24,000 nucleotides of DNA from Methanolobus sp. WCC4 (GTDB taxonomy: Archaea; Halobacteriota; Methanosarcinia; Methanosarcinales; Methanosarcinaceae). The position numbers and the translations under genes were made by a program. The notes beneath the pieces were generated by a model, which was not told the DNA's origin, searched no databases, and saw only the letters and a list, made by a program, of their open reading frames with translations. Below are positions 5,547-20,348 of the stretch, piece by piece (the stretch's first letter is position 1; each line of letters starts with the position of its first letter). The stretch lies in NCBI RefSeq assembly GCF_038022665.1, contig NZ_CP150629.1:826480-850479 (forward strand), written 5' to 3'.

Positions 5547-6806
5547 ATGGGAGTTATTTTAACTGACGATCTATTGGACAATATAGATGGATATAAGCTG
5601 GTCGATATAAGGTCGGTTGATGCTTATAATGGCTGGAAGGAGAACGGGGAGGCAAAAGGCGGTCACATCAAAGGTGCAAAGTCTCTGCCATACAAATGGT
5701 TACATTATATAGACTGGATAGAGATCGTCAGGAACAAAGGTATAGTGCCTGATGATTCCCTGGTCATCTATGGTTATGATCAGGAAAGGGCAGAAGAGGT
5801 TGCAAGGCAGTTTGAAAGGGCCGGTTATCCAGATGTTGCCGTTCTTGACTCATTTTCCGAATGGGTTGAAAAGGACCTGCCAATGGAACATCTTGAAAGA
5901 TACAGGCAGCTTGTTTCGGCAGACTGGCTTAACCAGTTGATCAGCACAGGGAATGCTCCTGAATACGACAATGACAGGTTCGTGGTGTGCCATGGTCACT
6001 ACAGGAATCCTTCTGATTATGAAGAGGGACATATCCCCGGGGCGATATCAATTGATACGAATTCTCTTGAATCCACTGAGACGTGGAATCGTCGCTCGCC
6101 TGAAGAGATAAAAGAGACTCTGGAAAATGCAGGTATAAGTTCTGATACCACAGTGGTCCTTTATGGAAGATTCTCATTCCCTAACAATGATGACCCCTTC
6201 CCCGGGAGCAGCGCAGGTCATCTTGGATCTATAAGGGCTGCATTCATAATGCTCTATGCCGGGGTAAAGGATGTTCGCATACTTAACGGCGGACTTCAGT
6301 CATGGCTTGACTCCGGATATGCTATAACAAAAGAACCGGTCAGCAAGGACAGAGTATCTTTCGGAGTTGATATCCCTCAGAAACCTGAGATAGCTGTTGA
6401 TCTGGAGGAGGCAAAGGATATCCTTGCATCGCCTGACAAGAACCTGGTATGTGTCAGAAGCTGGAGAGAATACATAGGGGAAGTTAGTGGTTACAACTAC
6501 ATTGAGAAGAAGGGTAGGATCCCTGGTGCAGTGTTCGATGATTGTGGTTCGGATGCCTACCACATGGAGAACTACAGGAACCTTGACCATACCATGCGTG
6601 AATATCACGAGGTTGCAGAAAGCTGGGAAAAGATAGGTATAACCTCTGATAAGCGCAATGCTTTCTACTGTGGGACCGGCTGGAGGGGCAGCGAGGCTTT
6701 CTTCAATGCGTGGCTCATGGGTTGGGATAAGGCAGCCGTCTATGATGGTGGATGGTTCGAATGGAGCAACAATGACCTTCCATTTGAGACCGGGGTGCCT
6801 GAGTAA
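5547..6806 (+). CDS. eanB: EanB-type rhodanese-domain sulfurtransferase (hercynine C2 sulfurtransferase / anaerobic ergothioneine synthase)
   Basis: 419 aa with tandem rhodanese-like domains ('GGHIKGA', 'EGHIPGA', 'KGRIPGA'). Active-site loop is 'FYCGTGWRGSE' (Cys375; TGT at 6669-6671). Counting back from that Cys gives Tyr at -1, -37 and -59 and Cys at -42 and -73. As I recall them, this is the same spacing as Chlorobium limicola EanB Tyr411/375/353 and Cys370/339 relative to Cys412. The stop overlaps the start of an EgtD-like gene (TAATG). Confidence 0.8.
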   Translation: MGVILTDDLLDNIDGYKLVDIRSVDAYNGWKENGEAKGGHIKGAKSLPYKWLHYIDWIEIVRNKGIVPDDSLVIYGYDQERAEEVARQFERAGYPDVAVLDSFSEWVEKDLPMEHLERYRQLVSADWLNQLISTGNAPEYDNDRFVVCHGHYRNPSDYEEGHIPGAISIDTNSLESTETWNRRSPEEIKETLENAGISSDTTVVLYGRFSFPNNDDPFPGSSAGHLGSIRAAFIMLYAGVKDVRILNGGLQSWLDSGYAITKEPVSKDRVSFGVDIPQKPEIAVDLEEAKDILASPDKNLVCVRSWREYIGEVSGYNYIEKKGRIPGAVFDDCGSDAYHMENYRNLDHTMREYHEVAESWEKIGITSDKRNAFYCGTGWRGSEAFFNAWLMGWDKAAVYDGGWFEWSNNDLPFETGVPE

Positions 6807-7768
6807 TGATAATTGAGGATTTCATGCCCCCGACAGGGGAAAGTTCAGTAAGGGACAGACTCCTGGCCGGTCTGAGGTCATACCCCAAAATGATCCCATC
6901 AATGTTCTTCTATGATCACAGGGGTTCGGAACTGTTCGAGCATATCACGGGACTGGAGGAATACTATCCTCCTAAGATCGAGATACCACTTCTTGCTTCA
7001 ACTGCCAGAAAGTTGAGACATGAATTAAAGGACTGCGATATTGTAGAGCTTGGAAGTGGTGACTGCTCGAAGATATCCGTTTTCCTTGATGAAGTGCCGG
7101 AAGATATCCGTGCTACCATGGCCTACTATCCGGTTGACGTCTGTAAGGAGGCAATTGAGAAATCGGCGTGTAATCTCCATGTAAAGTACCCTGAGATGGA
7201 GATACATGGCATAACTGCTGATTTCCTGGAACATATGGAGAAGATCCCGGGTGACCGAAAAAGGTTCTTCTGTTTCTTCGGGAGTACAATAGGGAATCTC
7301 AGTGAGGCAAAGGCGATGGAGTTCATGGGCAATCTGGGTGAGGTCATGAACGACGAAGACAGGCTCATACTTGGCATGGATATGGTGAAGGACATCGATG
7401 TCATCGAAAGGGCCTATAACGACAGTCAGGGTGTGACCGCTGAATTCAACAAGAACATACTGAACGTCACAAACGATAACCTTGGAACCAACTTCGACCC
7501 GGACGATTTTGAGCATGTGGCCTTTTTCAACAGGGAATATTCAAGGATCGAGATGCACCTGAGGGCAAAGAGGGATATGGAAATAACGGTTCCGGGGCTG
7601 AATGAAAAGATGATCATTGTGAAAGATGAGATGATACATACAGAGAACTCACACAAATATACTGCCAAAGATATCGAAAAACTGGCAGACGCAGCGGGAC
7701 TTGATGTGGAGGAGGTCTTTACCGATGACAGGAAATGGTTCTCTCTTGTTGAGATGGTGAAAAGATGA
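6806..7768 (+). CDS. eanA: EgtD/EanA-type SAM-dependent L-histidine N-alpha-methyltransferase (hercynine synthase)
   Basis: 320 aa. Collinear with mycobacterial EgtD as remembered: 'FFYDHRGSELFEHITGLEEYYPPK', 'IVELGSGDCSK', 'FFGSTIGNL', 'LGMDMVKD', 'ERAYNDSQGVTAEFNKNIL', 'FEHVAFFN...RIEMHLRA', 'IHTENSHKY'. Confidence 0.88.
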   Translation: MIIEDFMPPTGESSVRDRLLAGLRSYPKMIPSMFFYDHRGSELFEHITGLEEYYPPKIEIPLLASTARKLRHELKDCDIVELGSGDCSKISVFLDEVPEDIRATMAYYPVDVCKEAIEKSACNLHVKYPEMEIHGITADFLEHMEKIPGDRKRFFCFFGSTIGNLSEAKAMEFMGNLGEVMNDEDRLILGMDMVKDIDVIERAYNDSQGVTAEFNKNILNVTNDNLGTNFDPDDFEHVAFFNREYSRIEMHLRAKRDMEITVPGLNEKMIIVKDEMIHTENSHKYTAKDIEKLADAAGLDVEEVFTDDRKWFSLVEMVKR

Positions 7769-8946
7769 TAGATGCTGCAAAGGATTTCCCCATACTTGAA
7801 AAAGAGGTCTATGGCAGAAGACTTGTCTATCTCGATAGTGCAGCAACGACCCAGAAACCGGAATGTGTGATCGATACGATTGCCGGGTTCTACAGGTCGG
7901 ATTACAGTAATATCCATCGTGGCGTTCACTACCTGAGCGAGGTCTCAAGTGAGAGATATGAGAAGGCAAGGGAGAAGGTCAGTGAGTTCATAGGTGCCGG
8001 AAACCCTGCTGAAGTGACGTTCACTGCCGGTACGACAGATTCCATCAACCAGGTTGCACGCTCACTGGAACCATCTTTGAGAGGAAACGAGGTCATCGTG
8101 ACAGGTGTGGAACACCATTCCAATATCGTATCCTGGCAGATGGCAGGAGCTATTTTGAAGGCAATTCCGATAGATGATGATTGTAATCTGCTGGCGGATT
8201 CTCTGGAGATAACTGACAGAACGAAATTGATAGCTATCAGCCATGCTTCCAATGTCCTTGGCTCTGTCAATGATATCAAAGATATCGTCAGTATTGCAAG
8301 GGACCATGATATTCCGGTTTTAGTGGATGCTGCCCAGTCGATACAGCATATGTCTCTTGATGTGAAGGACATTGGCTGTGATTTTCTTGCATTCTCCGGT
8401 CACAAGATGTATGCATCCACCGGTGTGGGTGTTCTTTATACAAGTGAACGTTTCAGTGACATGATGCCGGCAAGGGGAGGAGGCGGTATGGTGGATAAGG
8501 TGACCCTTGAGAAAACCACCTATCTGGACCCTCCCCTGAGATATGAGGCGGGGACGCCGGATATTGCAGGAGCGATAAGCATCGGTGCAGCGATTGATTA
8601 TATGCAGAAGATAGGCATGGATAAGATAAAAGAGCATGAGCATGAGGTCTATTCCTATGCAAGGGACAGGCTGCTTGAAATGGATGATGTGACAGTCTAT
8701 GGTAACACTGATGAGATGTGCGGTGCCATCTCTTTCAACCTGAAAGGTGTCCATCACTATGATGCAGGTCTGATCATGGATAAGATGGGAATAGCCGTCA
8801 GGACCGGACACCACTGCGCTCAGCCATTGATGAGAACACTTGGAGTTGAAGGTACGGTAAGGGCAAGCTTTGCACTATATAATACTAAGGAAGATGTCGA
8901 CATGCTGGTCGAAGGCATAGAGAAGGTAAGGATGCTGCACTCATGA
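7765..8946 (+). CDS. sufS: group-II (SufS/CsdA-type) PLP-dependent cysteine desulfurase
   Basis: 393 aa. Motifs 'YLDSAATTQKP', 'NIHRGVH', PLP-lysine 'FSGHKMY', and the group-II signature with catalytic Cys 'RTGHHCAQPL'. ATGA overlaps at both ends (7765-7768 and 8943-8946). Confidence 0.9.
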   Translation: MIDAAKDFPILEKEVYGRRLVYLDSAATTQKPECVIDTIAGFYRSDYSNIHRGVHYLSEVSSERYEKAREKVSEFIGAGNPAEVTFTAGTTDSINQVARSLEPSLRGNEVIVTGVEHHSNIVSWQMAGAILKAIPIDDDCNLLADSLEITDRTKLIAISHASNVLGSVNDIKDIVSIARDHDIPVLVDAAQSIQHMSLDVKDIGCDFLAFSGHKMYASTGVGVLYTSERFSDMMPARGGGGMVDKVTLEKTTYLDPPLRYEAGTPDIAGAISIGAAIDYMQKIGMDKIKEHEHEVYSYARDRLLEMDDVTVYGNTDEMCGAISFNLKGVHHYDAGLIMDKMGIAVRTGHHCAQPLMRTLGVEGTVRASFALYNTKEDVDMLVEGIEKVRMLHS

Positions 8947-9350
8947 GCGATGCCATTCAGGATGAGATTATAAAGGAGTTCGAAGGACTGGAGTGGTTCG
9001 ACAAGTACGAACTGCTGATATCCTCGGCCAGGGAGGTCGAGACCATGGCTGAAGAGTTCAGGACAGAGGAGAATACGATAAGCGGATGCCAGTCAAAGGT
9101 CTGGATAAGGAGTTATATCAATGGTAAGAGATTGCATTTCGAGTATGACAGTGATGCCATGATAACCAAAGGTATCGTTGCCTTAGTACTCAGGGTGCTG
9201 AACAACCGTTACCCTCAGGATATCCTTGATACGGACCTGTATTTCATTGATGAGATAGGTTTGAAGTCTAATCTTTCTCCAGCGAGGGCTGATGGTCTGA
9301 TGTCGATCATCAGGAGGATTCGGGAGATCGCTGAGGAAGGAGTTAGTTAG
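8943..9350 (+). CDS. sufE: SufE-type sulfur acceptor protein
   Basis: 135 aa. Persulfide-acceptor loop 'ISGCQSKVWI' (compare E. coli SufE 'GCQSQVW'), 'DSDA.ITKG', 'LSP.R..GL..' at the C-terminus. Translationally coupled to sufS. Confidence 0.85.
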   Translation: MSDAIQDEIIKEFEGLEWFDKYELLISSAREVETMAEEFRTEENTISGCQSKVWIRSYINGKRLHFEYDSDAMITKGIVALVLRVLNNRYPQDILDTDLYFIDEIGLKSNLSPARADGLMSIIRRIREIAEEGVS

Positions 9351-13909: not shown

Positions 13910-13960
13910 TTAATAAAAAAACAGTTGAATGAGGGTGAGAACACCCTCGGAATTTTGATT
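13910..13960. terminator. bidirectional terminator between convergent genes
   Basis: Hairpin GAGGGTG-agaa-CACCCTC (13931-13948). It is flanked by A7 on the left (T7 on the minus strand) and 'aattttgattattt' on the right. Confidence 0.5.
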
Positions 13961-14867
13961 ATTTCAGGACGCCTGATCTCTGGATAGCCATCAGGTTCTC
14001 CATCGTCAGCTTTTCTCCGGACTTGAACTTGTCCATGATGTCTTCCGCATCCTTGCGGGCATCTGCCTTTGCAGCTTCCTTCTTTCCATCGACATCTCCC
14101 TTCTTCATCTTGCGGAGTTCCTTGTCGATATCACGGATCTCTTTCTGTGCTGCAATGAAAAGCTTGTGCTGTTCATCAGCTTTTTCCTGGAATTGAACGA
14201 ATTCTTTATGAGCAGCATCTGATTCTGCACGTACCTTGTCAGCCTCTTTGAAGGTGGTGATCATCTTGTCATGATATTCCTGTGCCTTCTGTGCGTACTC
14301 TGAAAGTGTAGTGTGGAACTGTGAAGCTTCGTCCCTGATCTCCTGTGCTTCTGCCATCAGGTTCTTGAGCTCTTCATTGCCCTCGAGCTGCTGCTTCTTG
14401 ACAACATACTGCTTCTGGAGTTCAGTGATCTTGTTGACCAGCTCTCTTTCCTTGTTGGTTGTAAGGACTTCGGTCTGCTGTGAGAATTCCAACCTGTCGA
14501 TCTCTTTGCGTATATCCTTGATCGATGGACCACTAAGGTTGTTATCGTTGCGGATCTGGTCTATCTTGGCAAATACATCGTTCGCCTTGTTGTTGACCTC
14601 ATCACGGAGTGCCTTGTTCTCCTTAACCTTCTCGTTGTTCTCGTCACGGAGCACCTTGTATTCCTGTGCCTCGTTGATAAGGTCCTTGGTCTTCTTGTTC
14701 AGCTCATTGCGCTTTGATGCAAGTGTGCTTGCCTCTGCATTGAGTTCGTTACGTTTGGTCTTGTACTCTTCTGACTGTGTCTTGAGCTCAGTCTTCTTGT
14801 CGTTAAGTTCTTTGATCATTGCCTTTTTGTCCTCCCGGTCCAGCAAAAAAGCTGGCATTTCATGCAT
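13959..14867 (-). CDS. archaeal K/E-rich coiled-coil protein (COG1340-like), function unknown
   Basis: 302 aa of near-continuous heptad-like K/E/Q/L sequence, co-oriented 22 nt downstream of serB. An alternative start is ATG 14819 (MIKELNDKK...), preceded by SD 'gggagga'. Confidence 0.75.
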   Translation of the reverse strand: MHEMPAFLLDREDKKAMIKELNDKKTELKTQSEEYKTKRNELNAEASTLASKRNELNKKTKDLINEAQEYKVLRDENNEKVKENKALRDEVNNKANDVFAKIDQIRNDNNLSGPSIKDIRKEIDRLEFSQQTEVLTTNKERELVNKITELQKQYVVKKQQLEGNEELKNLMAEAQEIRDEASQFHTTLSEYAQKAQEYHDKMITTFKEADKVRAESDAAHKEFVQFQEKADEQHKLFIAAQKEIRDIDKELRKMKKGDVDGKKEAAKADARKDAEDIMDKFKSGEKLTMENLMAIQRSGVLK

Positions 14868-14889
14868 TTCTAATGCACGATACCTGGCA

Positions 14890-15558
14890 TTACTCCGATT
14901 CCAGTGACTGGATTACCGGAATAACTGCTTCAAGGTTCTTCTCTGTAATGACAATATTCGCAAATTCACGCAGGATCGGTTTGGAATTGAAGGCTATTGC
15001 GTACCTTGCCATCTTGAATATACATATGTCATTGGCACCATCGCCAACCACTATGCATTCATCAGGCTTTATCCCATACCTTTCAGCGATCCTTTCAAGA
15101 ACATGTTCCTTGGAACCCTGTTCTGTAAGAGGACCTTTGACCTCTCCTGTGAGATGTCCATTGTCTATGAGAAGTTCATTAGCGACTACATGATCCATTC
15201 CAAGGTTCTTACCAACGCGCTCTGCAGCTATGGTAAATCCTCCGGAGATCATTGCAGTCTTATAACCCCGGGATCTCAGGTGATCAACAAGCTCTTTCGC
15301 ACCGGGCATAAGTGGCATCTTGTCGAGGGCAACGTGCGCATCATCCAGTGAAAGTCCTTTAAGCAGCCTCACTCTTTCCACAAGTGCTTCGGAAAAATCA
15401 AGTTCCCCGTGCATTGCTCTTTCGGTGATAGCGGCAACTTCGTCTCCCACTCCTGCGGCGTGTGCCAGTTCGTCAATGGTCTCAGCATCAATAAGAGTGC
15501 TGTCCATATCAAAAACTATTAACTTGACCCTGTTAGGCTTATTGCTGGTGCGATTCAC
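14890..15558 (-). CDS. serB: phosphoserine phosphatase (HAD superfamily, SerB)
   Basis: HAD motif I 'LIVFDMDSTLI', 'ISGGF', 'GDGANDI'. GTG start. 222 aa. Confidence 0.88.
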   Translation of the reverse strand: MNRTSNKPNRVKLIVFDMDSTLIDAETIDELAHAAGVGDEVAAITERAMHGELDFSEALVERVRLLKGLSLDDAHVALDKMPLMPGAKELVDHLRSRGYKTAMISGGFTIAAERVGKNLGMDHVVANELLIDNGHLTGEVKGPLTEQGSKEHVLERIAERYGIKPDECIVVGDGANDICIFKMARYAIAFNSKPILREFANIVITEKNLEAVIPVIQSLESE

Positions 15559-15783
15559 TTCATCAAACCTGAAATTTGAATCCCGTATTGAAACAGTATT
15601 TAAGTGCCGAGATTGATGTGAAATACGTTACATTGCTTTTAAGGTTTTCGATAGAGGCAGATCAACAGAAAATCTATTTTCCGGATATCTTCAAAAGAAG
15701 GCAAAGAGTGTACTCATTTTATATATAATTACTATAATATAATACTCCCGATATATCCGTGTAATCAATAATGGGTGACAATT

Positions 15784-16584
15784 ATGGAAACCACCGAAAC
15801 ACAATCATGCAGCACCGGAGACTTTGATATTACGAAAGATGTACTTGATCAGCTACCATGCATGGTCATGGCGATAGACCGGGATTATAACGTATTGAAC
15901 CTCAATGCAGTAGGATGCAACTGGCTTGAAGAGGACCTTGAACACGTTAAAGGTAGAAAATGCTATGACCTTGTACAATCCCCTCACTGCAGAACCGATA
16001 ATTGTCGTGTGAAACAGGCAATGGAAAATGACCGTGTATTTGTCTGGAGGAATGAGATGACAGCGGCAGGACGTACGTTCCCTGTAGAATATACTGCATC
16101 TCCTTTGAAGGACAAGGCCGGTAACATTGTAGGCGGACTCGAATATGTCATCGATATAACAGAGAGAGTGAAGATCGAGGCAGAGGTCAGGGCACACAGC
16201 CGAACCATAATGGAACTCTCAACACCTGTCATCAAACTGTGGGATGGAATAGTGATCCTTCCGCTCGTTGGTGTAATTGACACCATGCGCGCCCAGCAGA
16301 TAATAGAGAACCTGTTATCTTCCATAGTCGAGAATGAGGCAGCTGTGGCAATACTCGATGTGACCGGTGTCCCTATGATAGATACCAGTGTTGCGCAGCA
16401 CATACTCAAGACCGTGAGCGCAGGGAAAATGCTAGGTGCAGAGGTTATCATCACCGGATTCAGTCCTAATGTCGCACAGACCCTTGTGACACTTGGTGTC
16501 AATCTGGGTGACATAAAGACCAGTGGTTCACTACGTGATGGTGTCTCAAAGGCATTTGACATTCTGGGCAAGAAACTTGTTTGA
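15784..16584 (+). CDS. rsbR: RsbR-like stressosome scaffold/sensor: N-terminal Cys-rich PAS domain plus C-terminal STAS domain
   Basis: PAS-like N-terminus ending 'GGLEYVIDITER'. The C-terminus 'STPVIKLWDGIVILPLVGVIDTMRAQQI...AILDVTGVPMIDTSVAQHILK...MLGAEVIITGFSPNVAQTLVTLG' is the RsbR-type STAS. The ORF opens at GTG 15775. ATG 15784 is preceded by 'gggtga'. Confidence 0.85.
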   Translation: METTETQSCSTGDFDITKDVLDQLPCMVMAIDRDYNVLNLNAVGCNWLEEDLEHVKGRKCYDLVQSPHCRTDNCRVKQAMENDRVFVWRNEMTAAGRTFPVEYTASPLKDKAGNIVGGLEYVIDITERVKIEAEVRAHSRTIMELSTPVIKLWDGIVILPLVGVIDTMRAQQIIENLLSSIVENEAAVAILDVTGVPMIDTSVAQHILKTVSAGKMLGAEVIITGFSPNVAQTLVTLGVNLGDIKTSGSLRDGVSKAFDILGKKLV

Positions 16585-16599
16585 TTCACAGGTGGTTCC

Positions 16600-16974
16600 A
16601 TGCAGATACCAATACTTAAACTGAAGAACATCCTCCTCACATCGATTCAAAGCGATATGACCGATGATGATGCCCTGAGGTATCAGTCGGATGTTGTTTC
16701 CTTTCTGGAAAAGAGCGATGCAAAAGGCCTGATAATAGATATCACTGCAATGGATATCGTTGATTCCTTCATGGCCCGTGTGATCAACGAGACCGCGAGA
16801 ATGGCACGCCTTATGGGTGCAAAGGTCGTTCTCTGTGGTATGCAGCCAATGGTTGCACTGACACTGGTGGAAATGGGACGTGAGCTTATAGGGGTAGAGA
16901 CTGCCCTGAATCTTGACAAGGGATTTGATAAGCTTCTGGAAATGATCGCTGAAGGAGTTGATGATCATAAGTGA
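16600..16974 (+). CDS. rsbS: RsbS-like single-STAS stressosome protein
   Basis: 124 aa. Collinear with B. subtilis RsbS as remembered: 'IPILKLKNILLTSIQ', the phospho-acceptor context 'DIVDSFMARV', and 'LMGAKVVLCGMQPMVALTLVEMG'. SD 'aggtgg' lies upstream. Confidence 0.88.
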   Translation: MQIPILKLKNILLTSIQSDMTDDDALRYQSDVVSFLEKSDAKGLIIDITAMDIVDSFMARVINETARMARLMGAKVVLCGMQPMVALTLVEMGRELIGVETALNLDKGFDKLLEMIAEGVDDHK

Positions 16975-17368
16975 GAAAAGTATAGAGCTTAAGATAGAGG
17001 ATGATATTCTCATAGCCAGGCAGGTTGCAAGGCAGGAGATGGCTGATATCGGCTTTGGTTCCGCAGATCAGACCCGTATGGCTACAGCTATCTCTGAACT
17101 GGCAAGGAATGTGATCAAATACGCAGGACATGGCGTATGTCATCTAACCACCGAGTCTACACCTTCTGAGATAGTGATCAAAGTGCAAATAGAGGATTAT
17201 GGTCCCGGTATAGAGGATATCGATAAGGCCATGGAAGATGGCTATACCACCGGTGGTGGCCTTGGTGCAGGTCTTCCCGGTGCAAAGCGGCTGGTCAATG
17301 ATTTCTCCATTGAATCAAGTCCCGGATTAACAAAAATAAACCTGGAAATGAGTCGTCCTAATGTCTGA
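16961..17368 (+). CDS. rsbT: RsbT-like serine/threonine kinase (HATPase_c_2, anti-sigma-regulatory-factor family)
   Basis: About 135 aa. 'ELARNVIKYA' (N-box), 'DYGPGI' (G1), 'TTGGGLGAGLPGAKRL' (G2). It overlaps the rsbS 3' end, with SD 'gaaggag' at 16951-16957. Confidence 0.82.
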   Translation: MIISEKSIELKIEDDILIARQVARQEMADIGFGSADQTRMATAISELARNVIKYAGHGVCHLTTESTPSEIVIKVQIEDYGPGIEDIDKAMEDGYTTGGGLGAGLPGAKRLVNDFSIESSPGLTKINLEMSRPNV

Positions 17369-17373
17369 TAAGA

Positions 17374-17817
17374 ATGTCTGATAACTGTGATAACACGTTC
17401 CCCGGAGATGATCAGGAGGTAACGATAGAGGTAAAGGACCGTCCTCATGTTGCAAACGTCCAGACGAGTGCAAGATGGGTGGCAAAGAAGCTTGGTTTCT
17501 CTCATATCGATGTATGCAGAGCAGCTTCATCGGCATCAGAACTTGCTTCGAACCTGATATTTCATGCCAGCTACGGGGGTTCCATAACCATCAGGGCTGT
17601 TATGAAAGATGGAGTTGTGGGTATAGAGATCGTTTCCTGCGATGAAGGCCCCGGTATAAAGGACGTGGAACTTGCCCTGCAGGATGGTTATTCCACCGGT
17701 CCGGGTCTCGGTTCAGGACTTCCCGCAGTTAATAGGGCTATGGACGAACTCGAAATCACAGTAACAGACGATTCACATACACTAATAATAACAAGGTTGT
17801 GGCATTCATGCGAGTAG
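17374..17817 (+). CDS. second RsbT/RsbW-like HATPase_c_2 kinase paralogue
   Basis: 147 aa with 'ELASNLIFHA', 'DEGPGI', 'STGPGLGSGLPAVNRA'. It follows the same motif order as the preceding gene. Confidence 0.78.
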   Translation: MSDNCDNTFPGDDQEVTIEVKDRPHVANVQTSARWVAKKLGFSHIDVCRAASSASELASNLIFHASYGGSITIRAVMKDGVVGIEIVSCDEGPGIKDVELALQDGYSTGPGLGSGLPAVNRAMDELEITVTDDSHTLIITRLWHSCE

Positions 17818-18380
17818 CAACGGAATCCCGTTCATTCAATAATGACGTACATTGCGGTGACCAGTGTGACTGGTGGATAGAGGATGATATAGTGACCCTG
17901 TGCATGATCGATGGTCTGGGGCATGGGGAACGTGCTGAAGAGGCAGCAAAAGAAGCTCTGGATTACGTATCCTGTCACCTGGACGATTCCCTCGATAGAT
18001 TGTTCTCAGGTTGCAATAAGGCTATCAGGCATACAAGAGGTGCAGCAATGAGCATTGCACGTATCGATCAGAACGATTCCAGCCTTGAATATGCTGGTAT
18101 CGGGAATACCCGTACAATGATGTATGGTGAGAAGTCATCTCATCTCCCTTCAAGCTGGGGTATAGTGGGTGGAGGATATAGGCATCTGCATGTGGAGAGG
18201 AGTGACCTCTCTCCCTATGACCTTGTGATCATGTGGACTGATGGCATCCCCGAGAGTATCAAGCTATCATCGTATGACAGATACCTGCTGCAGGATGAAC
18301 AACAACTGGCAAAGAGGATACTTGAGGACTACGGACGCATGACGGACGACGCGACCATACTTGTGTATGCAAAGGGGTGA
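17808..18380 (+). CDS. rsbX: RsbX-type PP2C/SpoIIE-family phosphatase
   Basis: 'HCGDQCDWW', 'MIDGLGHGERA', 'TRGAAMSIARI', 'AGIGNT', 'MWTDGI' match the short RsbX-like PP2C layout. The ORF opens at GTG 17799. ATG 17808 overlaps the preceding stop region. Confidence 0.82.
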   Translation: MRVATESRSFNNDVHCGDQCDWWIEDDIVTLCMIDGLGHGERAEEAAKEALDYVSCHLDDSLDRLFSGCNKAIRHTRGAAMSIARIDQNDSSLEYAGIGNTRTMMYGEKSSHLPSSWGIVGGGYRHLHVERSDLSPYDLVIMWTDGIPESIKLSSYDRYLLQDEQQLAKRILEDYGRMTDDATILVYAKG

Positions 18381-18464
18381 TCCACTATTAACAAAGCTGA
18401 TTTCAATGAGCGGTATTATGATATCCTGAAGGGCTATGTATCAACCCGTGAAGAGAAATATCTG

Positions 18465-19403
18465 ATGAGGTCAGATGACCTTGGGTACGAACTTGTAAGG
18501 TTCAATGTTCCTCCTGAAGATATCATCGAAATGCACGAAATGGCTGTAAAGAAGCTGGCAACAGATCTTCCTGCAAAGAGCATGATGGAATGTGTGGGTT
18601 TCCTTTCAACTCCTCTTGTAGAGGTCATGATGGCATACGGTCTTGCATTCAGGCAATGGATAGAGGACCTTGAAAAGAGCAAGAGGGAAGTGGAGGAATA
18701 TGCCCGGGAATTGCAGCATTCCAATGACCTCAAAGAGCTCTTTGCAGATATAATGCGTCACGATCTTTTGAATCCTGCTTCCCTTGTCAATGGTTTTGTC
18801 TCGATCCTGCTTGAATGGGAAGATGATGAAAAGAAAAGGTCATTGCTTTCAAATATCAATAAGAGCAACAAGAATCTTATCGATATCATAGAGAAGGCAG
18901 CGGAATTTGCCAAACTGGATTCAGTTGAAGGAATTGAGTTCTCTTCAATGGATATTGGTTCCATTCTCGGGGAAATAGTCGACAGCTTCATGCCAAGATT
19001 CGAGGAAAGCGAGATGACCGTTGCTCTTGATACTGAGGGTTCTTATCTCACAATGGCCAATTCTGTTATCGAGCAGGTCTTCATGAATCTTATTTCCAAT
19101 GCCATCAAGTACAGTCCCCGTGGCAGTCACGTCCATATCACTATACTGGATGAAGGGGATCAATGGAATGTCAATGTGAAGGACCAGGGAAGTGGCATCC
19201 CTGAGAGTGACAGGGAATTTATCTTCACCCGTTTCTCAAGACTTGATAAGGTCAAGAAAGGAAGTATCAAGGGAACAGGTCTCGGACTTGCGATCGTGCA
19301 CAAGGTAGTTACCCTCCACAATGGCAGTGTAGGTGTGGATAGCAATTCTCCCGAAGCTGGCAGTACTTTCTGGGTGAGGCTCAACAAGGTACGTACAACT
19401 TAA
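18465..19403 (+). CDS. histidine kinase with RsbU-N-like (RsbT-docking) N-terminal domain, HisKA and HATPase_c; the true start is probably upstream (about 18387)
   Basis: N-terminus 'VPPEDIIEMHEMAVKKL...LVEVMMAYGLAFRQW' parallels B. subtilis RsbU 'IPPEEIISIHRKVLKEL...LIEVMIGYGMAYQEH' as remembered. H-box 'MRHDLLNPA', N-box 'NLISNAIKYS', G1 'DQGSGI', G2 'GTGLGLAIV'. Coordinates are given from the first ATG. The frame is open back to 18381 (see findings). Confidence 0.85.
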   Translation: MRSDDLGYELVRFNVPPEDIIEMHEMAVKKLATDLPAKSMMECVGFLSTPLVEVMMAYGLAFRQWIEDLEKSKREVEEYARELQHSNDLKELFADIMRHDLLNPASLVNGFVSILLEWEDDEKKRSLLSNINKSNKNLIDIIEKAAEFAKLDSVEGIEFSSMDIGSILGEIVDSFMPRFEESEMTVALDTEGSYLTMANSVIEQVFMNLISNAIKYSPRGSHVHITILDEGDQWNVNVKDQGSGIPESDREFIFTRFSRLDKVKKGSIKGTGLGLAIVHKVVTLHNGSVGVDSNSPEAGSTFWVRLNKVRTT

Positions 19404-19409
19404 TCCACA

Positions 19410-19441
19410 TTTTCATATTTTCTCCTTTTTATTTTATTTTT
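19410..19441 (+). terminator. oligo-T terminator after the histidine kinase gene
   Basis: 'ttttcatattttctcctttttattttattttt' begins 7 nt after the stop. Confidence 0.45.
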
Positions 19442-19482
19442 GGTGTATTCTCTCATTTTTGACAGTTAGCGAATCATTCCAA

Positions 19483-19526: not shown

Positions 19527-20348
19527 ATGGCAAAGATTGGATTCATAAAGCTAGGTAACTTAGGCATGAGCCAGGTGGTCGACCTCGTACAGGACGAGAT
19601 CGCAGCAAGAGAAGGAATTACCATCCGTTCATTCGGTACAGGTCCTAAAATGGGCAAAGATGAAGCAGCAGCAACAGAAGAACTCAAGAAATTCGATGCT
19701 GACTTCTATGTAATGATCAGCCCAAACTCCAGCGCACCAGGCCCAACCGCAGCTCGTGAGATATACAAGGACGTTCCATGTATCGTTATCTCAGACGGTC
19801 CAACAAAGAAGGAAGACCGTGCAGCACTCGAGGAAGCAGGATTCGGTTACATCATTATGACCGTTGACCCACTCATCGGCGCAAAGACAGAGTTCCTCGA
19901 CCCTGTAGAGATGGCATCATTCAACTCAGACGCAATGAAGGTCCTTTCAACCTGTGGTGTTGTAAGACTTATCCAGGAAGAGCTTGACAAGGTTGCTGCA
20001 ATGGCAGACGAAGGTAAGGAACTTGAGCTTCCACACATCCTCGCAAAGCCAGAGAAGTGCATCGAGAGAGCAGGCTTCAACAACCCATACGCAAAGGCAA
20101 AGGCTCTTGCATCCCTCCACATGGCTGACATGGTCGCAAAGATCAACTTCCCAGCATGTTTCATGATGAAGGACCTCGAGCAGGTAGCACTCACAACAGC
20201 AGCTGGCCACGAAATGATGCGCGCAGCAGCACAGCTCGCAATTGACGCAAGAGAGATCGAGAAAGCAAACGACAGTGTCTTCAGGCAGCCACACTCAAAG
20301 AAGGGCAACCTGATGACCAAGACAGCTCTCTACGACAAGCCACAGTAA
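19527..20348 (+). CDS. mtd: F420-dependent methylenetetrahydromethanopterin dehydrogenase
   Basis: 273 aa. N-terminus 'KIGFIKLGNLG.S' and overall length and composition are characteristic of Mtd. Codon usage looks highly expressed (strong C/G third-position bias, few rare codons). Confidence 0.88.
   Translation: MAKIGFIKLGNLGMSQVVDLVQDEIAAREGITIRSFGTGPKMGKDEAAATEELKKFDADFYVMISPNSSAPGPTAAREIYKDVPCIVISDGPTKKEDRAALEEAGFGYIIMTVDPLIGAKTEFLDPVEMASFNSDAMKVLSTCGVVRLIQEELDKVAAMADEGKELELPHILAKPEKCIERAGFNNPYAKAKALASLHMADMVAKINFPACFMMKDLEQVALTTAAGHEMMRAAAQLAIDAREIEKANDSVFRQPHSKKGNLMTKTALYDKPQ

What the first reader, a model, noticed from the sequence alone, without database searches (positions are those of the whole stretch)
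15775..19403. Complete stressosome-type partner-switching module in an archaeon, wired to a histidine kinase instead of a sigma factor
Six consecutive co-oriented genes, closely spaced or overlapping, encode the following. First, a PAS-STAS RsbR-like protein. Second, an RsbS-like STAS protein whose similarity to Bacillus RsbS is visible by eye, including the 'DSF' phospho-serine context. Third, an RsbT-like kinase. Fourth, a second RsbT/RsbW-like ATPase. Fifth, an RsbX-type PP2C phosphatase. Sixth, a histidine kinase whose N-terminus resembles the RsbU N-terminal domain, which is the surface RsbT binds in Bacillus. Archaea have no sigma factors, so the canonical sigma-B output cannot apply. 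The architecture predicts that released RsbT activates a HisKA/HATPase kinase. No receiver-domain gene follows: a T-rich terminator and then mtd come next, so the phospho-acceptor is unknown. RsbRST modules with alternative outputs are known in bacteria. I know of no experimental characterisation of an archaeal one.
Basis: partly seen in the sequence, partly recalled or inferred. Interest (0 to 1): 0.7.

Follow-up and report, generated by a model that had tools for sequence, protein, structure and literature searches.

The report
Archaeal stressosome operon feeding a histidine kinase
A methanogen (Methanolobus) carries an intact six-gene bacterial-type "stressosome" stress-sensing operon whose output is a histidine kinase; this is a borrowed, locally rewired copy of a system already known in bacteria, not a new kind of system.

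Summary
Window 15784-19403 (Methanolobus sp. WCC4) holds six tightly packed + strand genes:
- RsbR-like (PAS-STAS)
- RsbS-like
- RsbT-like
- a second RsbT paralogue, "T2"
- an RsbX-type PP2C phosphatase
- a kinase with RsbU_N-HisKA-HATPase domains

All domains pass Pfam cut-offs. The phospho-acceptor Ser/Thr, the kinase boxes and the catalytic His are all present.

One correction: the kinase starts at ATT 18387, not ATG 18465. Only then is the RsbU_N domain complete (48.4 bits instead of 27.9).

The same six-gene order, including T2, occurs in 13 bacterial genomes among the fetched loci (Desulfobacterota-type lineages, Geobacteraceae, Magnetovibrio, Chloroflexota, Planctomycetota and others). 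Stressosome operons with RsbU_N histidine kinases are already published for Proteobacteria, and reviews already note stressosome genes in archaea. So this is a horizontally acquired member of a known kind.

Archaeal peculiarities:
- No receiver (REC) gene follows; bacterial relatives have one adjacent or fused.
- The kinase core was swapped for a native Methanosarcinaceae core.
- T2 evolves fast here and is lost in Methanosarcina.
- One Methanolobus strain lacks the five upstream genes but keeps the kinase.

The function is inferred from homology only. T2, which is fused to RsbX in some bacteria, is the least understood part.

The parts
15716..15744 (+). A/T-rich TATA-like run (ATTTTATATATAATTACTATAATATAATA), 40-68 nt upstream of the first ATG; putative archaeal promoter of the operon
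   Evidence: Read directly from the sequence. The upstream intergenic sequence is conserved in Methanolobus sp. ZRKC1 (93% over window 15497-15655). Promoter function was not tested.
15784..16584 (+). RsbR-like co-antagonist (266 aa; alternative GTG start at 15775). It has an N-terminal PAS domain with three invariant cysteines (C60, C69, C74) and a C-terminal STAS domain with T201 and T233, the equivalents of RsbRA T171 and T205
   Evidence: Pfam PAS_4 59.2 and STAS 53.8 bits. PDB RsbR 7o0i_B E=2.9e-34, with alignment to RsbRA chains. Invariant columns in alignment A2. Codons verified.
16600..16974 (+). RsbS-like antagonist (124 aa), a single STAS domain; S56 (16765-16767) is the equivalent of B. 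subtilis Ser59 and Listeria Ser56
   Evidence: Pfam STAS 41.5 bits. PDB 6jhk RsbS E=1.4e-30 and 6qcm E=1.6e-30; the serine column is the one changed to Ala in entry 9o4r.
16961..17368 (+). RsbT-like switch kinase (135 aa; alternative TTG start at 16958). N box ELARN (46), G1 DYGPGI (79), G2 GLGAGL (100)
   Evidence: Pfam HATPase_c 41.8 and HATPase_c_2 36.5 bits. 4327 homologues, several named RsbT by JGI; 66% identical to the Methanosarcina protein and about 60% to bacterial ones. Motifs checked.
17374..17817 (+). T2, a second RsbT paralogue (147 aa, 37% identical to T) with intact N, G1 and G2 boxes; role unknown
   Evidence: Pfam HATPase_c_2 33.0 bits. T versus T2 compared by BLASTP. Invariant ATP-binding residues in A1. 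Forms a clade separate from T in an NJ tree. Present in 13 bacterial loci at the same position. Fused to PP2C, to T, or to PP2C plus a histidine kinase in other organisms.
17808..18380 (+). RsbX-type single-domain PP2C phosphatase (190 aa; alternative GTG start at 17799). Motifs CGD (16), DGLGHG (35), TDG (144), TDD (179)
   Evidence: Pfam SpoIIE 33.8 and PP2C_2 25.4 bits. PDB MtX 3zt9 E=1e-20 and RsbX 3w40 E=9e-11. Motifs checked.
18387..19403 (+). Cytoplasmic histidine kinase (338 aa, ATT start). RsbU_N spans residues ~1-90. One continuous helix 75-144 runs into the DHp domain, which carries H125 (18759-18761). The CA domain has its N, G1, F and G2 boxes.
   Evidence: Pfam on the 18381-19403 translation: RsbU_N 48.4 bits over profile 1-75, HisKA 33.7, HATPase_c 95.0. 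NCBI protein P0001 is 100% identical. N-RsbU 2j6z E=1.3e-8. AlphaFold2 model with mean pLDDT 80.7 and helix 75-144. Foldseek to HK853/ZraS E~1e-13. Motifs checked.
19404..19445 (+). T-rich tract (…CATTTTCATATTTTCTCCTTTTTATTTTATTTTTGG) after the kinase stop codon; likely an archaeal oligo-T terminator
   Evidence: Read directly from the sequence. The next gene is mtd at 19527-20348. Termination was not tested.

Best explanation
This is a horizontally acquired, still functional stressosome-type partner-switching operon of a bacterial subtype (R-S-T-T2-X followed by an RsbU_N output protein).

Proposed mechanism, inferred by homology:
1. RsbR (a PAS sensor, possibly sensing metal or redox through three invariant cysteines) and RsbS assemble through their STAS domains and sequester the RsbT kinase.
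2. On a signal, RsbT phosphorylates S56 of RsbS and T201/T233 of RsbR, and is released.
3. Released RsbT binds the dimeric RsbU_N domain and helical linker of the cytoplasmic histidine kinase. This changes autophosphorylation at H125.
4. The RsbX-type PP2C resets the STAS proteins.
5. The phosphoryl group goes to a receiver encoded elsewhere, most likely one of the REC-only proteins typical of Methanosarcinales.

T2 is an RsbT paralogue that works together with RsbX and the output kinase. Its exact role is unknown.
For: Shown by computation:
- All domains are above Pfam cut-offs.
- There are specific sequence matches to solved RsbS, RsbR, RsbX/MtX and N-RsbU structures, with the phospho-acceptor residues aligned.
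- The ATP-binding boxes of T and T2, the PP2C metal motifs, and the H/N/G1/F/G2 boxes of the kinase are intact.
- The AlphaFold2 model has one uninterrupted helix from RsbU_N alpha-4 into DHp alpha-1 (residues 75-144). This is the geometry proposed for RsbT-controlled effectors.
- The operon is under purifying selection across Methanolobus. pN is far below pS, and dN/dS is 0.01-0.10 for R, S, T, X and the kinase and 0.08-0.24 for T2.
- The operon sits at the same syntenic site in four Methanolobus species (window).
- The same six-gene order occurs in 13 bacterial loci, and 16 of 17 T+T2 loci carry an RsbU_N output.

From the literature:
- RsbT activates RsbU by binding the N-terminal domain and rigidifying a coiled-coil linker. 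RsbU_N histidine kinases occur in stressosome operons of Proteobacteria (PMC12143880; PMC9237108).
- In M. acetivorans most histidine kinases are orphans, and REC-only proteins act as hubs (PMC11784639).
Against: - No biochemical step was tested here, and none has been tested in any archaeon.
- In V. vulnificus no RsbT-kinase interaction could be shown, although that kinase lacks RsbU_N (PMC9237108).
- No receiver gene lies within 24 kb, so the output is unknown.
- The kinase has a non-canonical ATT start in this strain.
- The kinase core is a replacement from another kinase family, so the original linker-to-core coupling may have changed.
- The role of T2 is unexplained; it evolves fast here and is absent in Methanosarcina.
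- One Methanolobus strain has lost R-S-T-T2-X but keeps the kinase, so the module is dispensable.
- dS is near saturation, so the dN/dS values are rough.
Confidence: 0.65

Rival explanations
1. T2, not T, is the protein that talks to the kinase, or T2 acts together with RsbX as a separate branch. In this view R-S-T only sets the phosphorylation state. T2 is released or recruited to dock RsbX on the STAS core, or to control the RsbU_N kinase.
For: - T2 has intact ATP-binding boxes.
- T2 is present at the same position in 13 bacterial loci, and 16 of 17 T+T2 loci carry RsbU_N outputs.
- T2-clade ATPases are fused to the PP2C in six genome loci.
- T2-like ATPases occur in single polypeptides with PP2C (P0303, P0313, P0328, P0341), with T (P0287, P0288), and with PP2C plus HisKA-HATPase (P0380).
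Against: - Bacillus and Moorella systems work with one RsbT (literature).
- Methanosarcina sp. KYL-1 keeps R, S, T, X and the RsbU_N kinase without T2.
- T2 is the least constrained gene in Methanolobus.
- Fusions show association, not mechanism.
- The T versus T2 identity of the library fusion proteins was not established by phylogeny.
Confidence: 0.2
2. The operon is a decaying relic of horizontal transfer with no signalling role in the archaeon; the kinase, if active at all, works independently of it.
For: - R-S-T-T2-X is precisely absent in Methanolobus sp. ZRKC1, with the kinase retained.
- T2 is lost in Methanosarcina.
- The ATG start of the kinase is lost in WCC4 and M. vulcani.
- There is no cognate receiver.
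Against: - All six ORFs are intact in at least four Methanolobus species.
- pN is far below pS for every gene.
- Catalytic and phospho-acceptor residues are conserved.
- The 26 codons upstream of Met27 differ between WCC4 and M. vulcani by 8 synonymous and 4 non-synonymous changes, with no stop codon.
Confidence: 0.08
3. R, S and T form only a small partner-switching complex, not a ~1.5-1.8 MDa icosahedral stressosome, and the kinase is regulated by simple stoichiometric sequestration.
For: Assembly cannot be read from sequence. The N-terminal sensor is a PAS domain rather than the non-haem globin of RsbRA. There is a single RsbR gene.
Against: The STAS domains of R and S are very close to those of proteins solved in stressosome particles (109-122 bits). 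PAS/LOV-STAS proteins such as YtvA do join Bacillus stressosomes (from my own knowledge).
Confidence: 0.15

Closest known systems
Bacterial rsbRSTX stressosome modules with RsbU_N-histidine kinase outputs (Proteobacteria; Heinz et al. 2022, PMC9237108; Baral et al. 2025, PMC12143880)
   Same: R (sensor-STAS), S, T and an RsbX-type PP2C are followed directly by a signalling protein with an RsbU_N domain. The minimal RsbU_N-HisKA-HATPase output also occurs in Azospirillaceae, Magnetovibrio, Ca. Contendobacter and Geobacteraceae loci. There is no sigma factor, RsbV or RsbW.
   Different: - The host is an archaeon.
- An extra RsbT paralogue (T2) lies between T and X. It is shared with 13 bacterial loci found here, but I did not find it described in the papers I could search.
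- No receiver domain is adjacent or fused, whereas L019, L048 and L052 have a REC gene next door and L001, L010 and L011 are hybrid kinases.
- The kinase core is of Methanosarcinaceae type (54% identical to a non-module kinase, 29% to the Methanosarcina module kinase).
Bacillus subtilis / Listeria stressosome (RsbRA-RsbS-RsbT with RsbU, RsbV, RsbW, SigB, RsbX)
   Same: RsbS is about 109 bits (E~1e-30) from the Bacillus and Listeria proteins, with the phospho-serine conserved. The RsbR STAS domain has both phospho-threonines. RsbT, RsbX and an RsbU_N domain are present as the presumed RsbT docking site.
   Different: The output is a histidine kinase instead of the RsbU PP2C. There is no RsbV, RsbW or sigma-B. 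X follows directly after the kinases. The sensor is a PAS domain, not a non-haem globin. There is a second RsbT paralogue.
Moorella thermoacetica MtR-MtS-MtT-MtX-MtG stressosome (Quin et al. 2012, as cited in PMC12143880)
   Same: It is an RSTX order with a non-sigma output carrying RsbU_N. The window phosphatase is closest to MtX among solved structures (3zt9, E=1e-20), and S matches MtS 2vy9 (E=8e-26).
   Different: The output there is a GGDEF diguanylate cyclase, here a histidine kinase. No T2 is reported there.
Vibrio vulnificus O2-sensing stressosome (VvRsbR-S-T-X plus D1/D2 two-component proteins)
   Same: It is a stressosome linked to two-component proteins instead of a sigma factor. 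VvRsbR is the best solved match for the STAS part of R (7o0i_B).
   Different: The Vibrio sensor is a haem globin, and its downstream kinase lacks RsbU_N (PMC9237108). Here the sensor is a Cys-rich PAS domain and the kinase has a full RsbU_N.

Membership tests
Stressosome (RsbR/RsbS/RsbT/RsbX module) | RsbS: a single STAS domain with the conserved phospho-acceptor serine (B. subtilis Ser59) | tested here: met
   STAS 41.5 bits. 6jhk E=1.4e-30, with S56 in 'DSF' aligned to the Bacillus and Listeria serine.
Stressosome (RsbR/RsbS/RsbT/RsbX module) | RsbR: a variable N-terminal sensor plus a C-terminal STAS domain with two conserved threonines (RsbRA T171 and T205) | tested here: met
   PAS_4 plus STAS. 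Aligns to RsbR chains at E~1e-29 to 1e-34. T201 and T233 are invariant in A2.
Stressosome (RsbR/RsbS/RsbT/RsbX module) | RsbT: a GHKL serine kinase with N, G1 and G2 boxes, encoded directly after rsbS | tested here: met
   HATPase_c and HATPase_c_2 above cut-off. About 60% identical to proteins named RsbT. Motifs found. Kinase activity itself was not tested.
Stressosome (RsbR/RsbS/RsbT/RsbX module) | RsbX: a single-domain PP2C feedback phosphatase | tested here: met
   SpoIIE 33.8 bits. MtX 3zt9 E=1e-20 and RsbX 3w40 E=9e-11. Metal-binding motifs present.
Stressosome (RsbR/RsbS/RsbT/RsbX module) | Assembly of R and S into a ~1.5-1.8 MDa pseudo-icosahedral particle that sequesters T | not testable with these tools
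   Needs co-expression followed by SEC or EM. Only sequence closeness to particle-forming STAS domains is available.
RsbT-controlled effectors with an RsbU N-terminal domain | A complete RsbU_N four-helix dimerisation domain joined by a helical linker to the effector domain | tested here: met
   RsbU_N 48.4 bits over profile 1-75 once the start is corrected. N-RsbU 2j6z E=1.3e-8. AlphaFold2 gives helices 3-20, 24-38, 43-60 and a continuous helix 75-144.
RsbT-controlled effectors with an RsbU N-terminal domain | Physical binding of RsbT to RsbU_N, with a change in effector activity | not testable with these tools
   No complex prediction or assay is available here.
Class I (HisKA) two-component histidine kinase | DHp domain with a phospho-accepting His, and a CA domain with N, G1, F and G2 boxes | tested here: met
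   HisKA 33.7-33.9 and HATPase_c 95 bits. H125 is invariant in A3. Boxes found. Foldseek to HK853/ZraS E~1e-13.
Class I (HisKA) two-component histidine kinase | A cognate receiver (REC) partner, usually adjacent or fused | tested here: not met
   No Response_reg domain in any ORF of 100 aa or more in the 24-kb window. Bacterial counterparts have an adjacent or fused REC. A distal partner cannot be excluded; orphan kinases are the rule in Methanosarcina (PMC11784639).
SigB-type partner-switching cascade (RsbU-RsbV-RsbW-sigma B) | RsbV anti-anti-sigma, RsbW anti-sigma kinase and a sigma factor gene | tested here: not met
   Only two STAS proteins (R and S) and no sigma domain are in the window. 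T2 is RsbT-like: RsbT of Bacillales loci scores about 90 bits against T2, whereas the RsbW genes expected in those loci gave no hit at E<=1e-3.
YtvA / LOV-STAS blue-light photoreceptors | A LOV domain with the flavin-binding NCRFLQ motif; NCBIfam YtvA_fam at or above the 250-bit cut-off | tested here: not met
   YtvA_fam scores 90.1 bits against a cut-off of 250. LOV structures match only at E>=0.02. C60 aligns with the LOV cysteine, but the sequence reads KCYDLVQ.

The most novel reading that the evidence does not exclude
T2 defines an unrecognised core component of a widespread stressosome subtype (R-S-T-T2-X followed by an RsbU_N output) that spans many bacterial phyla and Methanosarcinaceae. 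In this reading T2 is an RsbT paralogue that physically couples the feedback phosphatase RsbX, and in some lineages the output kinase, to the STAS core. The Methanolobus copy would then be a working archaeal stressosome that senses redox or metal state through a Cys3 PAS domain and feeds a REC-only phosphorelay through a kinase core borrowed from a native archaeal kinase.
Probability: 0.3. Interest if true: 0.6.

Novelty: new member of a known kind. Interest (0 to 1): 0.4.

Why it matters
- It gives a concrete, well-delimited archaeal stressosome operon with corrected gene starts. Archaeal stressosomes are mentioned in reviews, but I found none characterised in the papers I could search.
- It shows how a bacterial signalling module was domesticated after transfer. 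The RsbU_N docking domain and linker were kept, the kinase core was replaced by a native one, and the cognate receiver was dropped. This matches the orphan-kinase, REC-only-hub wiring of Methanosarcinales.
- It highlights a conserved second RsbT paralogue, fused to RsbX in some bacteria, that current stressosome models do not account for.
- It is not a new kind of system, and nothing here challenges established mechanisms.

Tried and rejected
1. **Read-through of the PP2C stop codon to give an X-kinase fusion.** TGA 18378-18380 is in frame with the kinase. I rejected this because M. vulcani has two stops in a row (TGA TGA). M. halotolerans uses an ATG overlapping the stop in another frame, and M. 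sediminis has its own ATG.

2. **ATG 18465 as the kinase start.** Rejected for three reasons. It cuts off profile positions 1-23 of RsbU_N. Orthologues conserve the upstream 26 residues. The WCC4 and M. vulcani differences in that stretch are mostly synonymous.

3. **The 96-aa ORF between T and X in Methanosarcina sp. KYL-1 as a T2 remnant.** It shows no similarity to T2 by BLASTP and has no Pfam hit.

4. **R as a LOV/YtvA photoreceptor.** It scores below the NCBIfam cut-off and lacks the flavin-binding motif.

5. **A receiver gene in the window, or next to the closest paralogous kinase (P0012).** None was found.

6. **Compositional signs of recent transfer.** GC content of the operon (0.45-0.48) is like that of its surroundings, so this is uninformative.

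7. **Literature.** Pané-Farré et al. 2005 is not held, so I could not check which archaea it lists. Searches for a second RsbT or an RsbT paralogue found nothing relevant. P0021 is not on record for a context look-up.

8. **The sigma-70 promoter and terminator scanner was not used**, because it does not apply to archaea.

Full report
**What is there**

The window is from Methanolobus sp. WCC4. Three of the encoded proteins are 100% identical to NCBI proteins of that strain. Between a divergently oriented HAD/SerB-like gene (14890-15558, minus strand) and mtd (19527-20348, plus strand) lie six tightly packed + strand genes.

- R: PAS_4 and STAS.
- S: STAS.
- T: HATPase_c and HATPase_c_2.
- T2: HATPase_c_2.
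- X: SpoIIE and PP2C_2.
- Kinase: RsbU_N, HisKA and HATPase_c.

Matches to solved structures make the names specific.
- S matches B. subtilis and Listeria RsbS at E~1e-30. Its Ser56 sits in the column of the known phospho-serine, which is the column mutated to Ala in entry 9o4r.
- The STAS half of R matches V. vulnificus RsbR and other solved RsbR chains (E 1e-29 to 1e-34). Both phospho-threonine positions are kept: T201 and T233, invariant in nine archaeal and bacterial sequences.
- X is closest to Moorella MtX and B. subtilis RsbX.
- The kinase N-terminus matches the N-RsbU crystal structures.
- The ATP-binding boxes of T and T2, the PP2C metal motifs, and the H, N, G1, F and G2 boxes of the kinase are all present.

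**A correction to the coordinates**

The reading frame is open back to the PP2C stop codon. Translating from 18381 raises the RsbU_N score from 27.9 to 48.4 bits and extends the match from profile positions 24-75 to 1-75.

Orthologues conserve this N-terminal stretch. M. sediminis and M. halotolerans start it with ATG. In WCC4 and M. vulcani the only candidate in-frame start is ATT at 18387, which is what NCBI annotates. The WCC4 and M. vulcani differences in these 26 codons are 8 synonymous to 4 non-synonymous, so the stretch is translated.

The PP2C stop is in frame with the kinase. Read-through is nevertheless unlikely, because M. vulcani has two consecutive stops there.

**Where it comes from**

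I scanned one genome per species with an alignment of T2 relatives and retrieved 80 loci. I classified these, together with loci fetched by other look-ups, using phmmer and the six window proteins as queries.
- Seventeen loci have T plus a separate T2. Four are Methanolobus and 13 are bacteria: a SEEP-SRB2 deltaproteobacterium, Syntrophobacteraceae, Geobacteraceae, Magnetovibrio, Azospirillaceae, Ca. Contendobacter, Ardenticatenales, Anaerolineae, Planctomycetaceae, Gemmatimonadetes and others.
- Sixteen of these 17 are followed by an RsbU_N protein.
- Six further loci have T2 fused to the PP2C.
- Forty-one loci have a single ATPase, including the classical Bacillales operons.

In a neighbour-joining tree (no support values), the T2 sequences, including the fused ones, form one group. 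The T proteins of Methanolobus and Methanosarcina are sisters, nested among the T proteins of bacterial two-ATPase modules. The PAS-STAS form of R, with the same cysteine motif, is shared with the deltaproteobacterial and Pseudomonadota loci.

The simplest reading is a single transfer of a complete bacterial module into Methanosarcinaceae. GC content gives no signal of recent transfer.

**What the archaeal copy changed**

1. *Receiver.* Bacterial outputs with RsbU_N are of three kinds. Some are minimal RsbU_N-HisKA-HATPase kinases followed by a single-domain REC gene (L019, L048, L052). Others are hybrid kinases with a fused REC (L001, L010, L011). Others are PP2C-type outputs. The Methanolobus and Methanosarcina kinases have no REC, and no REC domain occurs anywhere in the 24-kb window.

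2. *Kinase core.* The Methanolobus kinase is a mosaic.
   - Residues 6-126 (RsbU_N plus linker) are 46% identical to the Methanosarcina module kinase.
   - Residues 102-334 (DHp and CA) are 54% identical to a non-module PAS-GAF kinase of Methanococcoides.
   - The same residues are only 29% identical to the Methanosarcina module kinase.
   
   The core was therefore replaced by a native Methanosarcinaceae kinase core, with the junction in the helical linker.

3. *T2.* T2 is the least constrained gene. It is 59-63% identical between species, against 73-98% for the other five genes, with dN/dS of 0.08-0.24 against 0.01-0.10. In Methanosarcina sp. KYL-1 it is replaced by an unrelated 96-aa ORF.

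4. *Loss in one strain.* In Methanolobus sp. ZRKC1 the same syntenic site lacks window 15682-18370 (R, S, T, T2 and X). It keeps the upstream intergenic region, the last bases of X, and the kinase.

**How it most likely works**

The best-supported model is the standard stressosome logic carried over to a kinase output. R and S sequester T. A signal perceived by the PAS domain of R lets T phosphorylate S56 and T201/T233 and leave. T then binds the RsbU_N dimer and linker of the kinase. X resets the system.

The AlphaFold2 model of the kinase (mean pLDDT 80.7) shows a four-helix N-domain whose last helix runs without a break, over residues 75-144, into the DHp helix that carries H125. The rest of the model superposes on HK853 and ZraS. 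This is the architecture for which Baral et al. proposed that RsbT rigidifies a coiled-coil linker. They explicitly mention RsbU_N histidine kinases in proteobacterial stressosome operons (PMC12143880; PMC9237108).

All functional steps are inferred; none is shown. The phospho-acceptor is unknown. In M. acetivorans kinases outnumber receivers about 3:1, most are orphans, and REC-only proteins act as hubs (PMC11784639). A distal REC-only protein is therefore the most likely target.

**The open component, T2**

T2 is RsbT-like. It is 37% identical to T. The RsbW genes expected in the Bacillales loci gave no hit to T2 at E<=1e-3, whereas RsbT scored about 90 bits. T2 keeps its ATP-binding residues.

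A search of 1.84 billion representative proteins found 1333 relatives at E<=1e-10. Among the ten I scanned with Pfam were three kinds of single polypeptide:
- two tandem ATPase domains (P0287 and P0288, which are also the two best hits);
- ATPase plus PP2C (P0303, P0313, P0328, P0341);
- ATPase, PP2C, HisKA and HATPase together (P0380).

These fusions argue that T2 acts in one complex with T, X and the output kinase. One possibility is that it docks or gates the feedback phosphatase. They do not give a mechanism. I found no description of a second RsbT in the searchable literature, but that library is incomplete.

**Comparison with what is known, and novelty**

Reviews and primary papers already state that stressosome genes occur in "bacteria and archaea" (PMC8942246) and that rsbRSTX is conserved in "even some archaeal species" (PMC9237108). 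They also state that RsbU_N-bearing kinases follow rsbX in some Proteobacteria. I found no experimental or detailed genomic treatment of a Methanolobus or Methanosarcina stressosome.

The finding is therefore a new, well-supported member of a known kind. Its lineage-specific twists are the lack of a receiver, the swapped kinase core, and the presence of T2. A specialist would find it interesting but not surprising, because Methanosarcinales are known to hold many bacterial-type signalling genes.

**Limits**

- The tree has no support values.
- dS is near saturation.
- The locus sample was biased by the T2-based search patterns.
- Only one genome per species was scanned.
- The structure model is a monomer.
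- No assay of any kind was possible.

Noticed in passing
window 15961-16005 (R residues C60, H68, C69, C74): The PAS domain of R carries a C-x8-C-x4-C motif. All three cysteines are invariant in nine PAS-STAS RsbR proteins from Methanolobus, Methanosarcina and bacteria; His68 is conserved in all but the Methanosarcina sequence. C60 aligns with the flavin-adduct cysteine of LOV domains, but the LOV motif is absent. This suggests a metal, Fe-S or thiol-redox sensing site.
   Followed up: partly
window 18378-18467; L006 7005-7090; L086 5993-6003; L087 5999-6003: The kinase has no ATG, GTG or TTG start upstream of Met27 in WCC4 and M. vulcani. The only in-frame candidate is ATT, 6 nt after the PP2C stop codon and in the same frame as the PP2C. 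M. sediminis and M. halotolerans use ATG. Several gene callers therefore predict a 312-aa protein with a truncated RsbU_N domain. Termination-reinitiation coupling is a possible explanation.
   Followed up: partly
L088 5571-6001 (Methanolobus sp. ZRKC1) versus window 15682-18370: At the same syntenic site, ZRKC1 lacks the R, S, T, T2 and X genes. About 200 nt sit in their place. The upstream intergenic region, the last bases of X and the RsbU_N kinase are retained, and the kinase is again annotated with a non-canonical start.
   Followed up: yes
L034, L042, L045, L046, L055, L083; proteins P0287, P0288, P0303, P0313, P0328, P0341, P0380: In other organisms, T2-like ATPases are fused in one polypeptide to the RsbX-type PP2C, to a second ATPase domain, or to PP2C plus a HisKA-HATPase kinase.
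   Followed up: partly
L005 6411-6701 (Methanosarcina sp. KYL-1): In the Methanosarcina version of the operon, the T2 position is occupied by a 96-aa ORF with no Pfam hit and no similarity to T2. The kinase there is 480 aa, with about 150 extra residues between RsbU_N and HisKA.
   Followed up: partly
window 5547-9350 (+): A four-gene run: a triple-rhodanese protein, an EgtD-like histidine methyltransferase (Methyltransf_33, 348.7 bits), a class-V aminotransferase/cysteine desulfurase, and SufE. From memory, this resembles the anaerobic ergothioneine pathway (EanB/EanA) with sulfur-donor genes, here in a methanogen.
   Followed up: no
window 13959-14867 (-): A DUF7121 protein (302 aa), very rich in Lys, Glu and Asn and apparently coiled-coil. 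It causes a strong AT skew (-0.36) in the 14001-15000 bin. It is conserved at this position in other Methanolobus genomes.
   Followed up: no
L003 6001-12153 (Chloroflexia MAG): A T2/RsbT-like ATPase stands next to two very large multi-GAF proteins (829 and 667 aa) whose C-termini match the RsbR STAS domain, plus a further 313-aa STAS protein. There is no RsbS-type protein or PP2C nearby, so this is a differently built STAS-kinase system.
   Followed up: no
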